Below are positions 24,001 through 27,352 of a stretch of DNA of 27,352 nucleotides, piece by piece. Position 1 is the first letter of the stretch, and each line of letters opens with the position of its first letter. Source of the stretch: Pseudomonadota bacterium. GTDB taxonomy: Bacteria > Bdellovibrionota > Bdellovibrionia > Bdellovibrionales > Bdellovibrionaceae. The stretch covers positions 1 through 27,352 of the forward strand of contig JBEGVH010000002.1 in the NCBI GenBank assembly GCA_041178425.1. Reading direction: 5' to 3'. The position numbers are program-made.

Positions 24001-27000
24001 TCTTTTGAGAAATTTATCCCCGAAAAAGAGCGCCACGATCTTATGGCTGCTTACACAAAGCGACTTCATTCTGCCGACGAAGAAACCGTTTTGGAAGCGG
24101 CTCTCCTGTGGAGCCGCTGGGAAGCGAGCACATCAAAGCTTGTTCCTTCTCTGGGATTTATTCAAAAATATGAGAACCCTAAAAAGGCTCTTCCGTTTGC
24201 GCGCATAGAGGCCCATTACTTTAGCCATGGGGCGTTCTTGCCTGCAGATAATTTTATATTAAAAAATGTAGGGGCCATCAAAGATATACCCACTCGCATT
24301 GTACATGGACGTTACGATGTAGTTTGCCCGATTAGAACAGCCTGGAAGCTTCATAAAGCTCTGCCTCAAAGTGAACTAAAAATAACACCCGAAGCAGGCC
24401 ACTCTCTTTTCGAACCTGCAACACTGAGTGCGGTGATTGAGGCGTGTGAAGAACTAGAAATGCTTACTCGATAGATCGGTGACTTGAAGCTTTGATATTG
24501 AGATTTCCGGAGCCGGCTTTAAACGATACAAAAAATTTGGCATCTTCAAAATCACCTAGCTCATTAAAAGCATCACCAGATCCCACAAGAACTCGGCTGT
24601 GAACCCTCATCTTTGCCGGCAGAAATAGTGTCGCATCTCCCGATCCGGTCTTAATGTCGACCTCACCCTTACCGGGGTCTTTAGAGTAGCCCAGCTTGAT
24701 ATCACCGGAGCCCAGTTTGATATTTGCACTTCCGACCATACCCTGAATATCGAATGATCCTTTGCCCGCAATAGCGTTGAGGTGATCAACGATCGATTGC
24801 ACCTTTACGTCACCGGCTCCAACCTTGATTTCTAATTCACCCTTCGTTCCCGCAATATCGACAGGGCCCTTGAGGTTTTTAAGTTGAATCTTCATTTTTT
24901 TAGGAATCACCAGAGAAAAGTTGGCCTCGCAGTCAACATTGCTTAACATCGATCGCTTACCACCTTCGATTTCAAGAACCTTGTCCGTTTGCTTAAAACT
25001 GAGGAGACACTTTTCTCCAAAATTAACTTTATCGACTTTAACGATTATCTTATCGGTGGCTTCACCAATAATACGAATACGGCCTCCTTGATTGGTTAAC
25101 TCTAACCTCACCAATTCTTTAGCCATAAACTCTTTTGTTTCACTTGAGGCGAGGGCTTTACAAACCCCTCCAATGGCAACTACAGCAATAGCCACAGCAA
25201 CCTGCAACACCCCTCTGAACATAAATACCCCCCACTGAGATTACTGTTCGTTTTCTCAGCGCTCGGAGGTTCTAGGCAAAAGCTCCAAAGAGGTCAACCC
25301 CCACAAAAATCGAGGGTCATAAGGGTGCCTTTTATTTAGACTGTATTTGTTTCAAATAGCGTCCTAATGCCATTAAAGTGAAGGATTTGGGATAAGCTGG
25401 GTATTCCATGGGTACAATTCTTGGATGCCCTGTTCCAACAAAACTGACGTCAATCCATCGTCCTTCATTACGATACTGGTGGGTTAGATAGCTCGCTGCA
25501 CCCTTGCTTGCGCTCGATCGACCACGCCCGCCTTCGAGCAGGGCCATCAAGGCCCATGCTGTTTGAGAAGCGGTGCTTCGGCCTCCGCACTTAAAGTTTT
25601 CATGAGTGTATGATTGAAAGCTTTCACCAAAACCACCATCAAATCGATTCGGACAGCGCTCTAGCCAATTCAAGGCTTTTACAATCATGGGATCACTCGC
25701 AGGAATTCCGACCTTCATAAGACCAATTACCGCAGCTGATGTTCCATAAATATAGTTTACTCCCCAACGCCCTTCCCAACCGCCGAAACTGGTGTTTTGA
25801 TTTCGACGAAGATAATCAATGGCCTCTCTCACCTCTTTAGAATTACTGACGTTGTACCCATATGCGCCCAGCGCCTCAAGAATGTGTCCAGTGACATCGG
25901 CTGAACTTTCATCGAACAGATCAGCCGAATCGAGAAAGTCTTTGGTCATTCGCTCCAAAAAGAAATTGCCATCGTTGTTCTTAGCAAAAGCACCCCAGCC
26001 GCCATCGGAGTTCTGCATTTCAAAAAGCCAAGCTAAGGCCCTGCGATGTTGCGGATGCCAATAGCCTGCCTTTTTGTAGAATAACAGAATTTCGGCTGTA
26101 TCATCGGTGTCTTCATAACTTTCAAAGTCGTAACCAAAGCCGTATCCACCGCTCTGTTCATTTTGAATCGTCATTAAATAATCAACCGACGAACGCAATT
26201 CTCGGGCAGGAATCCCTGCTTCGATAAGACCTTGCCCCACTAGAGCCGTATCCCAATATCGACCGTCACAGGCAACGCCCTTGTAAGCTCCTTCGGGATT
26301 TCTCACAATCATCTCTTCGAGAAAATCAAATCCGGATCGCATCGCTTGAGCGAGACGAACACTCATAGTAGAGCTCAATCGAGCCCGATGAATCAGGTGA
26401 TCTATCACTGCCATTGAGAGCTGGGTGGCAGGTGTGTAACCACCAAAACTCCCGTGTGGCTGCTGCTTACTGAGCAAAATCGGAACCAATTCAATATCGT
26501 CGCTCTCTGGCTTATGGGAGACTGTCATTTTCACCGATTCATTACTTCTTAGCTTGAGCTCGTCTAACTGAAAACGACTTCCGAGATTTTTAAAAACCTT
26601 ATTTTTTTGAAGATACGCAATTGCAATCAGATGCGAACCTACCCACTGGGCAAATTGGTGTTCATTCACCGGAGACCATCGATCAAACAGCATATAAGGT
26701 ATCGATGGAAAATCCTCCCACGACAAATTATTAAAGAGACTCAAAAAGACACGAGTAAACTGAGAGGCTTTTTGTAGCCCTCCTTTTGACAAAATAAAAT
26801 TTCGTGCTTTAACCATAGCAGGCTCGCTTACGGGAGTACCCATCACCTTCAAAGCCCAATAGTGATAGATAGTGGGATTAATATCACCCACTGGCAAATT
26901 CGCTTCGTGAATAATCTCCCAAGACCCATCTGGGCGCTGGCTGGTAACAATCAAATTCTTGAGCTTCTTCGCATCAAACTCCGATTGTTTATCGAGTCCG

Positions 27001-27352
27001 AGCCAATGAGACATGAGGTAATACTGGCTGGCATACATCATTCCAATGTAGCTAGGATACAACCAATAGGAATTGTCTTTCCGTTCGGCCATAATATCTG
27101 AGGTCGCCTTTTTTAAGACACTTTCAACTTCAGTGGTGCCAACGACACTAATCAACGCTTCAGTCCGGCCAAAAAACGGAACCAAAACCATTAAAGTGAT
27201 CAACAACAATTGTTTTATGCTTTTAGTAAAAAAGACGTTTTTCATAGGGCCTTTGTAACTTTTCTCGGCCCCTTTGAATAGGTCTGCAAGAGCGCTTTGA
27301 AATCTCTAGACGGCATAGACAAAACCGGGCAATTTACAATTGTTAAAACAGG

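What a model noticed while it worked through the whole genome (the two positions that open the first line are those of the whole stretch)
25332..27245. Signal-peptide-bearing tetrahymanol-synthase-like triterpene cyclase in a genome without squalene synthase
g00031 is an intact triterpene cyclase (DTDD motif) that scores closer to eukaryotic squalene-tetrahymanol cyclase than to hopene cyclases and, like most of its clade, begins with a signal peptide. This genome has no squalene synthase, so the substrate would have to come from outside.
Evidence so far: Best Swiss-Prot hit is Tetrahymena THC1 (2e-91, against 2e-70 for SHC; call 43). The best NCBIfam family is TIGR04277 tetrahymanol synthase for 4 of 4 members tested. 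57 homologues, 46 with a hydrophobic N-terminal stretch; named ones are Bdellovibrionota. Present in 5 of 151 order genomes. The other four have a second, Sqs-like SQS_PSY gene; this genome has only crtB, and those proteins find no match here.
(Added by a program. Inside this text positions count along the whole contig: contig position 1 is position 1 of the stretch shown here. "Call 12" and the like, gene names such as g00115 and contig names such as C1 are that model's own, and its searches are not shown. The text may have been shortened before it was handed on; [...] marks where a part breaks off. The agent that wrote the report below was given it as the finding of a first reader that could run no searches.)

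Follow-up and report, generated by a model that had tools for sequence, protein, structure and literature searches.

The report
Exported bacterial relative of tetrahymanol cyclase
This gene belongs to a group of apparently exported bacterial enzymes, mostly from Bdellovibrionota, that are the closest relatives found of the enzyme anaerobic protists and fungi use to make the sterol substitute tetrahymanol, yet most of these bacteria seem unable to make its substrate, squalene.

Summary
Confirmed and extended. The 637-aa ORF is an intact class II triterpene cyclase (DTDD) with a Sec-type signal peptide. The genome (100% complete) has only a carotenoid-operon CrtB: no Sqs, HpnC/D, YtpB or HpnH. 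In every ML tree it falls in one clade with the eukaryotic squalene-tetrahymanol cyclases (STC; 100/99). The published STC+SqhC grouping is rejected (AU p=1.2e-5). Whether STC is nested inside the bacteria or sister to them is unresolved (p=0.34). The clade shares with STC the published diagnostic His (137/152 bacterial or environmental rows, 15/15 eukaryotic, 0/121 outgroup), loss of Phe605, several indels and the N-terminal signal sequence (96/149, 11/14, 7/118). Of 24 Bdellovibrionota genomes carrying it, 16 lack Sqs and 12 have no SQS_PSY gene at all. Every Sqs-less genome with a visible N-terminus (15 of 15) has a signal-bearing enzyme; signal-less copies occur only with Sqs. Best reading: an exported, membrane-associated cyclase making tetrahymanol from squalene obtained from prey or the environment. 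Product and substrate are inferred, not shown. Ten literature searches found no description of this clade.

The parts
25332..27245 (-). STC-lineage class II triterpene cyclase, 637 aa, two-domain (gamma-beta) alpha/alpha toroid
   Evidence: AlphaFold pLDDT 94.4, pTM 0.92; Foldseek TM 0.83 to A. acidocaldarius SHC 2sqc; trees
27156..27245 (-). Predicted Sec/SPI signal peptide, residues 1-30 (basic n-region, hydrophobic 13-25, T-E-A at -3 to -1); no twin-arginine motif, no lipobox
   Evidence: sequence, hydropathy; cleavage site read by eye
26463..26561 (-). E229-Q261 segment, 33 aa against a median of 61 in SHC; covers the region of SHC's membrane-inserting helix alpha8 (helix name and role recalled), shortened in the clade and in STC
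   Evidence: medians: bacterial clade 34.5, eukaryotic 44, SqhC-type 51.5, SHC 61
26148..26255 (-). W331-G366 segment carrying a ~15-residue deletion shared with eukaryotic STC
   Evidence: medians 35 and 36 vs 50 in SHC and SqhC-type
26100..26111 (-). Catalytic DTDD motif (D379, D381, D382 = SHC D374, D376, D377)
   Evidence: all three Asp in 46/46 bacterial-clade and 13/13 eukaryotic rows
25422..25436 (-). GTGHP motif with the STC-diagnostic His607 (Phe601 in SHC); V611 replaces SHC Phe605 as in STC (Leu in THC1)
   Evidence: (published alignment)
24464..25222 (-). Downstream DUF4097 (Toastrack) protein with a hydrophobic N-terminus; also two genes downstream of the cyclase in congener G064; link to the cyclase not shown

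Best explanation
The gene encodes a member of the bacterial branch of the squalene-tetrahymanol cyclase lineage. SHOWN: intact catalytic acid, STC-type cavity residues, one clade with eukaryotic STC, conserved signal sequence, no recognisable squalene synthesis in the genome. INFERRED: (1) Sec export puts the enzyme on the periplasmic or outer side of a membrane (about 0.85; some relatives have lipoboxes or an Ig-like fusion). (2) It draws squalene from the bilayer, protonates the terminal double bond with DTDD, and closes five rings. With Phe601 replaced by His and Phe605 by Val, the E ring expands to six members and water quenches the cation, giving tetrahymanol (about 0.6). (3) Because the cell cannot make squalene, the substrate comes from outside: prey or host membranes, or environmental lipid, in a phylum known for predation (about 0.55; lifestyle recalled, not tested for this genome). 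The product would stiffen its own or the prey's membrane without oxygen. Evolutionarily, this clade is the closest relative of eukaryotic STC found here and the likeliest donor pool (about 0.75); its signal peptide could have given ER targeting on arrival.
For: Clade of bacterial members plus STC: SH-aLRT 99, UFBoot/SH-aLRT 100/99 with stem 0.79, 99; signal-peptide columns were excluded from all three. STC+SqhC rejected, p-AU 1.2e-5, 164 lnL worse. Diagnostic His from PMC3317845 supplement 1: 137/152 bacterial or environmental, 15/15 eukaryotic, 0/121 outgroup rows. 11 columns are shared by STC and the clade but rare in SHC/SqhC, against 5 STC-only columns. Four segment lengths follow STC. Signal-like N-terminus 96/149, 11/14, 7/118; named STCs have it. 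No PF00494 gene in 12 of 24 carrier genomes, 8 of them at least 90% complete and at most 5% contaminated (G063, G064, G596, G557, G573, G826, G657, G519). CrtB-type only in 4 more. Genome table of 22: signal+/Sqs- 15, signal+/Sqs+ 3, signal-/Sqs- 0, signal-/Sqs+ 4. YtpB 0/5; HpnH 0/5 over cut-off; mevalonate pathway and polyprenyl synthases present 5/5.
Against: No product, substrate, localisation or expression data. Below all three NCBIfam cut-offs. Five STC-only columns, including R608 (Pro here, but also Pro in Paratrimastix and Barthelona). Bacterial monophyly to the exclusion of STC is not rejected (p-AU 0.335; 0.445 without P0109). The P0109+STC sister group (99/96) disappeared when its own relatives were added, so no donor sub-lineage is identified. 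Signal-less members form about one clade (98/82), so the Fisher p of 0.005 overstates the signal/Sqs link. Three signal+ genomes and eukaryotes have their own Sqs, so the signal does not require an outside substrate. G539 and G664 also carry an OSC-like cyclase (beside an epoxidase-like gene in G539) with no Sqs found, which could mean Sqs is being missed in MAGs or replaced by an unknown enzyme. The gene is patchy (11 of 390 class genomes) and broken in G061.
Confidence: 0.45

Rival explanations
1. Same exported STC-lineage enzyme, but its substrate is made in-house: a non-squalene all-trans polyprenoid (for example a quinone side chain or polyprenol, as meroterpenoid cyclases use), or squalene from an unrecognised synthase outside PF00494.
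For: Polyprenyl synthases and HMG-CoA reductase are present in 5/5 genomes tested. The gene is retained intact in many genomes without SQS_PSY. G539 has an OSC-like cyclase plus an epoxidase-like gene without Sqs. SqhC shows that substrates switch in this family (PMC12324236, section read).
Against: The cavity residues track STC, a squalene enzyme. No neighbouring gene is conserved across the carrier loci inspected. YtpB is absent in 5/5. Signal-less copies are found only where Sqs exists.
Confidence: 0.2
2. Exported squalene cyclase using outside squalene, but the product is hopene, diplopterol or a mixture rather than tetrahymanol; the change to tetrahymanol happened on the eukaryotic stem.
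For: Below the TIGR04277 cut-off. Five STC-only columns. STC has its own stem (0.16, 100/97). The role of the His is only proposed in PMC3317845.
Against: His601, the loss of Phe605 and Phe437, Gly366 and Tyr261 are all in the STC state. Genuine STC-lineage proteins also fall under the cut-off.
Confidence: 0.2
3. A relic: the gene lost its pathway when Sqs was lost and is now non-functional or decaying.
For: Patchy distribution (11/390). The G061 copy has a frameshift and an internal deletion. No pathway neighbours.
Against: The catalytic Asp triad is invariant in 46/46 rows. The gene is full length in most Sqs-less carriers across three family groups (f1, f22, f25), with two copies each in G064 and G620. 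An independent population keeps the locus.
Confidence: 0.07
4. CrtB of the carotenoid operon supplies a C30 or C40 substrate (dehydrosqualene or phytoene) that the cyclase uses.
For: It is the only SQS_PSY gene in G000, G061, G620 and G539. In G594 and G592 a single CrtB/HpnD-like gene lies beside an ordinary SHC.
Against: CrtB sits in a full crtY-crtE-crtI-crtB operon on another contig. 12 carriers, including congeners G063 (100% complete) and G064, have no PF00494 gene at all.
Confidence: 0.05
5. Direction reversed: the bacterial clade descends from a eukaryotic STC gene, or the two are sisters from an unsampled ancestor; the signal peptide is then a eukaryotic ER signal reused by Sec.
For: The AU test does not reject bacterial monophyly (p 0.335), and the backbone is a polytomy.
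Against: The outgroups (P0214 Armatimonadota, SqhC-type, SHC) are bacterial. Eukaryotes are one clade in every tree, while the best trees place them among bacterial lineages. Other signal-bearing cyclases exist outside the clade in the same phylum.
Confidence: 0.2

Closest known systems
Eukaryotic squalene-tetrahymanol cyclase (THC1 of Tetrahymena thermophila, Q24FB1; TIGR04277)
   Same: One clade (100/99); DxDD; GTGH His; loss of Phe605; shared indels; N-terminal signal sequence; 32-37% identity to five named members.
   Different: Bacterial host; 405 bits against a cut-off of 500; Pro instead of the usual Arg after the His; four other STC-only columns differ; host genome has no squalene synthase; product untested.
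Squalene-hopene cyclase (A. acidocaldarius SHC, PDB 2sqc/1gsz; TIGR01507)
   Same: Fold (TM 0.83), catalytic DxDD, W169/W312/W489/Y495/Y609/Y612 equivalents.
   Different: Phe601 to His, Phe605 to Val, Phe437 to Ser, Gln366 to Gly, Ile261 to Tyr; two deletions; signal peptide; no hpn genes nearby and no HpnH over cut-off; 355 bits against a cut-off of 431.
Sporulenol synthase SqhC of Bacilli (published weak sister of STC)
   Same: Same family; next outgroup after P0214 in the trees.
   Different: 27% identity; no His, no deletions, no signal; YtpB absent; STC+SqhC clade rejected. The SqhC label of my Bacilli rows rests on host class, score band and the motif, not on a named record.
Bacterial tetrahymanol synthase Ths route (SHC plus Ths; Banta 2015, as described in a passage of PMC8364164)
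   Same: Would give the same product in a bacterium.
   Different: A two-enzyme route through a hopanoid with an unrelated protein (unrelatedness recalled); here a single STC-type cyclase is proposed. Ths was not searched for.

Membership tests
Class II triterpene cyclase (squalene-type) | Two-domain alpha/alpha toroid fold with PF13249 and PF13243 | tested here: met
Class II triterpene cyclase (squalene-type) | DxDD general-acid motif for alkene protonation | tested here: met
   D379/D381/D382
Squalene-tetrahymanol cyclase (STC) | His at the position that is Phe in SHC and OSC (GTGH), per PMC3317845 supplement 1 | tested here: met
Squalene-tetrahymanol cyclase (STC) | TIGR04277 score of at least 500 | tested here: not met
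   405.2; four named eukaryotic STC-lineage proteins also fail at 426-491
Squalene-tetrahymanol cyclase (STC) | Inside the monophyletic eukaryotic STC crown | tested here: not met
   The eukaryotic crown (100/97) excludes it; it lies in the enclosing clade (100/99)
Squalene-tetrahymanol cyclase (STC) | Converts squalene to tetrahymanol | not testable with these tools
   needs expression and GC-MS
Squalene-hopene cyclase (SHC) | TIGR01507 score of at least 431 | tested here: not met
   355.3
Squalene-hopene cyclase (SHC) | Phe601 and Phe605 in the cavity | tested here: not met
   His607 and Val611
Squalene-hopene cyclase (SHC) | Host makes squalene (Sqs or HpnCDE) and usually has HpnH | tested here: not met
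Sporulenol synthase (SqhC) | Bacilli clade and YtpB substrate synthase | tested here: not met
Oxidosqualene cyclase (OSC) | DCT-type motif, TIGR03463, squalene epoxidase in host | tested here: not met
   DTDD; 139.5 against a cut-off of 851; a Bdellovibrionota epoxidase-like query found nothing in 5 genomes, without a positive control in that call
Sec-exported protein | Tripartite n/h/c signal peptide with small residues at -3 and -1 | tested here: met
   sequence and hydropathy; no dedicated predictor available
Sec-exported protein | Actual cleavage and extracytoplasmic location (versus an uncleaved anchor) | not testable with these tools
   needs fractionation or reporter fusion

The most novel reading that the evidence does not exclude
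Predatory Bdellovibrionota export an STC-type cyclase that turns squalene taken from prey or host membranes into tetrahymanol: a one-gene, scavenging route to a sterol surrogate that works outside the cytoplasm. This signal-peptide-bearing clade is the long-sought bacterial donor of eukaryotic STC, pre-adapted for ER targeting, and an unrecognised bacterial source of the gammacerane biomarker.
Probability: 0.33. Interest if true: 0.93.

Novelty: new variant of a known kind. Interest (0 to 1): 0.8.

Why it matters
The origin of STC is a stated open question. PMC3317845 says the donor could not be identified and found only weak affinity to Bacillus. PMC7306690 places STC near Firmicute SHCs. PMC12324236 (2025) still describes STCs as coming from microbial eukaryotes. 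A large bacterial clade sharing STC's diagnostic residue, indels and signal peptide makes the question testable with ordinary gene synthesis and GC-MS. If these enzymes make tetrahymanol, gammacerane gains a further bacterial source, which affects its use as a marker of ciliates and stratified water. An exported triterpene cyclase in cells that cannot make squalene would be a new way to run this chemistry, relevant to predator-prey lipid exchange. The signal peptide also raises an untested question about the membrane topology of eukaryotic STC.

Tried and rejected
The search for related loci found nothing with P0001 in genome contigs, with P0042 or P0054 in metagenome contigs, or with the C-terminal alignment in viral contigs (one pattern only, so weak evidence against viral carriage). 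P0109 as sister of STC: seen, lost, rejected. The treekit AU test did not finish and was replaced by IQ-TREE runs; single fast searches varied by up to about 65 lnL and were not used alone, except for the GTDB-only constraint (p 0.29). A RoxA-like partner lies beside a cyclase in four genomes but occurs in 44 of 79 genomes searched and was not found in G000, so it was rejected as a required partner. Promoter and terminator scan: nothing above chance. No RNA holder listed. ESM Atlas: generic SHC clusters only. Earlier findings of this scan: none. Hoshino and Villanueva 2023 was not held. No complex prediction was run.
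Full report
Observation. The ORF at 25332-27245 (-) encodes 637 aa with both SQHop_cyclase domains. It folds confidently (pLDDT 94.4) and matches A. acidocaldarius SHC at TM 0.83. NCBIfam ranks TIGR04277 first (405 bits), then TIGR01507 (355) and TIGR01787 (298); all are below their cut-offs. Of 75 homologues scanned, 72 had TIGR04277 as best family. Against 12 chosen references, five named eukaryotic STC-lineage proteins score above four SHCs and two SqhC-type proteins. Residues 1-30 read as a Sec/SPI signal peptide by inspection and hydropathy. The gene matches the genome in GC, and a contig from an independent freshwater study spans it together with neighbouring housekeeping genes. 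It is the only PF13243 gene in the genome. Named homologues are Bdellovibrionota, plus one Limisphaerales member, so the clade is mostly but not only Bdellovibrionota; most members are unnamed environmental sequences.

No squalene synthesis. The genome (3.06 Mb, 100% complete) has one PF00494 gene. It is best matched by CrtB models and lies in crtY-crtE-crtI-crtB on another contig. Sqs-like proteins of relatives (best family TIGR01559, below its cut-off) and profiles built from them hit only this gene. In five carrier genomes including this one, YtpB was absent (0/5), HpnH never reached its cut-off (0/5), DXR was absent (0/5), and HMG-CoA reductase and polyprenyl synthases were present (5/5). 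The cells can make prenyl diphosphates but have no known way to join them into squalene.

Distribution. Searches of 390 class genomes, 401 phylum genomes, and 238 and 127 genomes of two other classes (the sets overlap) gave 24 genomes with a clade member. In the class search, 11 of 390 carried one. Eight carriers have an Sqs-like gene (G059, G083, G187, G264-G267, G578). Sixteen do not: 12 have no PF00494 match at all and 4 have only a CrtB-type match (for G620 and G539 'CrtB-type' rests on the scores, not on an NCBIfam scan). Eight of the 12 are at least 90% complete and at most 5% contaminated. Leaving out G265 (one copy with and one without a signal) and G826 (N-terminus off the contig), the table is signal+/Sqs- 15, signal+/Sqs+ 3, signal-/Sqs- 0, signal-/Sqs+ 4 (N-termini read). 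The signal-less enzymes form about one clade, so this is close to a single contrast and the Fisher p of 0.005 overstates it. No neighbouring gene is conserved across the loci inspected. The G061 copy is broken.

Relationship to eukaryotic STC. Named references came (Tetrahymena THC1, Paratrimastix, Stygiella, Piromyces, Anaeramoeba, Barthelona, Brachionus). FastTree on 288 rows and IQ-TREE LG+C20+F+G4 on 82, 52 and 44 rows (signal columns removed in the IQ-TREE runs; 30 of the 82 rows, including most long branches, dropped) all join the bacterial clade and STC on a long, fully supported stem (100/99). An Armatimonadota protein and then the Bacilli SqhC-type proteins lie outside. Eukaryotes are monophyletic (100/97). 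AU tests under LG+F+G4 on the 52 rows reject STC+SqhC (p 1.2e-5) but not bacterial monophyly (p 0.335; 0.445 without P0109); the constrained searches were shorter than the free one. The apparent sister of STC, P0109 (99/96), moved away when its relatives were added. So this clade is the closest relative of STC found here, but nesting and the donor sub-lineage are not established.

Shared characters. PMC3317845 supplement 1 names a His, in GTGH, as the STC-specific replacement of a Phe. It is present here (H607), in 137 of 152 bacterial or environmental clade rows, in 15 of 15 eukaryotic rows, and in 0 of 121 outgroup rows. Using SHC numbering, F605, F437, Q366, I261 and T173 are also in the STC state; 11 columns unite STC with the clade, and 5 are STC-only. 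Four segment lengths follow STC rather than SHC, including a ~15-residue deletion and a shortened segment over SHC's membrane helix alpha8 (the helix's role is recalled). Signal-like N-termini occur in 96 of 149 clade rows, 11 of 14 eukaryotic rows and 7 of 118 outgroup rows (a simple hydropathy rule that misses some). Twelve clade rows matched a loose lipobox pattern, several convincingly, and one member carries a signal peptide plus a bacterial Ig-like domain; both point to an extracytoplasmic location. Four named eukaryotic STC-lineage proteins score 426-491 on TIGR04277, so the 500 cut-off does not separate function.

How it most likely works. Shown: catalytic acid, STC-type cavity, signal sequence, absence of known squalene synthesis. 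Inferred: Sec export and membrane association; uptake of squalene from the bilayer; protonation-initiated pentacyclisation with a six-membered E ring and water capture, giving tetrahymanol; squalene supplied by prey, host or environment. That Bdellovibrionota are largely predators and that SHC is cytoplasmic and monotopic is recalled knowledge; I did not test this genome's lifestyle. The signal does not by itself demand an outside substrate: THC1, which has one, makes tetrahymanol in yeast (PMC8364164, passage), and three Sqs-positive carriers have one. The argument for an outside source rests on gene absence in MAGs. G539 and G664, which have an OSC-like cyclase but no Sqs found, warn that absence may reflect incomplete assemblies or an unknown synthase. 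Joint confidence is 0.45; rivals are an in-house substrate (0.2), a hopanoid product (0.2), a relic (0.07) and CrtB supply (0.05).

Membership. It works like an STC on every sequence criterion I could test, but I do not file it as an STC: it is outside the eukaryotic crown, below the family cut-off, and its product is untested. It is not an SHC, SqhC or OSC.

Literature. Ten full-text searches found no description of this clade. 'Tetrahymanol' with 'Bdellovibrionota' or with 'predatory bacteria', and 'Bdellovibrionota' with triterpenoid, cyclase and sterol, gave 0 papers. What I saw of each paper: PMC3317845, parts 1 and 2 of 3 and supplement 1 (donor not identified); PMC7306690, passages (STC near Firmicute SHCs); PMC12324236, abstract, passages, part 1 of 3 of the Results and the figure legends and table (STCs 'from microbial eukaryotes', no mention of Bdellovibrio or signal peptide in the main text; supplements and tree files not seen); passages only of PMC8364164, PMC7440791, PMC12324291, PMC11550330, PMC12924338, PMC8692599 and 10.1101/487215. 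PMC13198582 lists STC among ciliate genes attributed to uncultured 'microbial dark matter' donors (passages); its Table S4 was not among the supplements I could search and may name a related bacterial hit. Hoshino and Villanueva 2023 was not held, and subscription journals are mostly outside the library, so prior notice in a large tree cannot be excluded.

Verdict. A real, intact and unusual gene. The link to eukaryotic STC is strong; the exported-scavenger mechanism is plausible but unproven. New variant of a known kind; interest 0.8.

Noticed in passing
L020:3-932 (G083), L181:5129-6643 (G519), L184:1385-2815 (G561); G643:C86 8833-9462 near a cyclase at 10548-11405: A RoxA-like (rubber-oxygenase-type, PF21419) haem protein gene lies beside or near a triterpene cyclase in four genomes; in three the cyclase was seen to bear a signal peptide. 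RoxA-like matches occur in 44 of 79 genomes searched and were not found in G000.
   Followed up: partly
L015:325-2418 (G057), L016:400-2394 (G183), L017:1270-3243 (G177), L184:2811-4685 (G561): Other, very divergent signal-peptide-bearing triterpene cyclases in Bdellovibrionota, outside the STC-linked clade; the G177 gene lies next to Sqs.
   Followed up: partly
L010:591-2516 and L010:2516-3838 (G265): A signal-less STC-lineage cyclase with DxDD is directly coupled to an FAD monooxygenase resembling squalene epoxidase, suggesting that some members cyclise oxidosqualene.
   Followed up: partly
L182:3173-10425 (G578), L186:1969-5423 (G539): OSC-like cyclases (DCT motif) with epoxidase-like genes; in G578 clustered with Sqs and a GT21 glycosyltransferase: a possible sterol or triterpenol pathway in Bdellovibrionota.
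   Followed up: partly
P0143, P0022/P0024, P0094, P0172: Fusion forms of the cyclase: signal peptide plus 640 aa with a Big_2 Ig-like domain; signal peptide plus 280 aa unknown domain; weak annexin-like N-terminus; 200 aa Cys-rich C-terminal extension.
   Followed up: partly
P0366, P0361, P0146: Brachionus plicatilis, Barthelona sp. PCE and Anaeramoeba flamelloides proteins annotated as SHC, hypothetical or sporulenol synthase fall in the eukaryotic STC clade; the Brachionus protein lacks a signal peptide.
   Followed up: partly
P0106, P0109: Signal-less members on 2.0-2.8 kb contigs, sister to signal-bearing P0054 on a 114 kb contig; domain of life unknown, possibly transcripts from a second transfer.
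   Followed up: partly
L013:1151-2628 (G061): A congener's cyclase copy has a frameshift and lacks about 87 residues: a pseudogene or an assembly error.
   Followed up: yes
L022:8772-15244 (G000:C6): Carotenoid cluster crtY-crtE-crtI-crtB-hypothetical-glycosyltransferase in the window's genome.
   Followed up: yes
window 1051-2501 (-): AbiEi/AbiEii type IV toxin-antitoxin pair.
   Followed up: no
window 12095-14077, 14780-16162, 16228-19401, 19386-20222: Four long ORFs (660, 460, 1057 and 278 aa) with no Pfam or NCBIfam match.
   Followed up: no
window 22532-22574: A ~40-base stretch at the start of the adenosine deaminase gene is shared with unrelated contigs in two runs; probably the conserved motif, not examined.
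   Followed up: no
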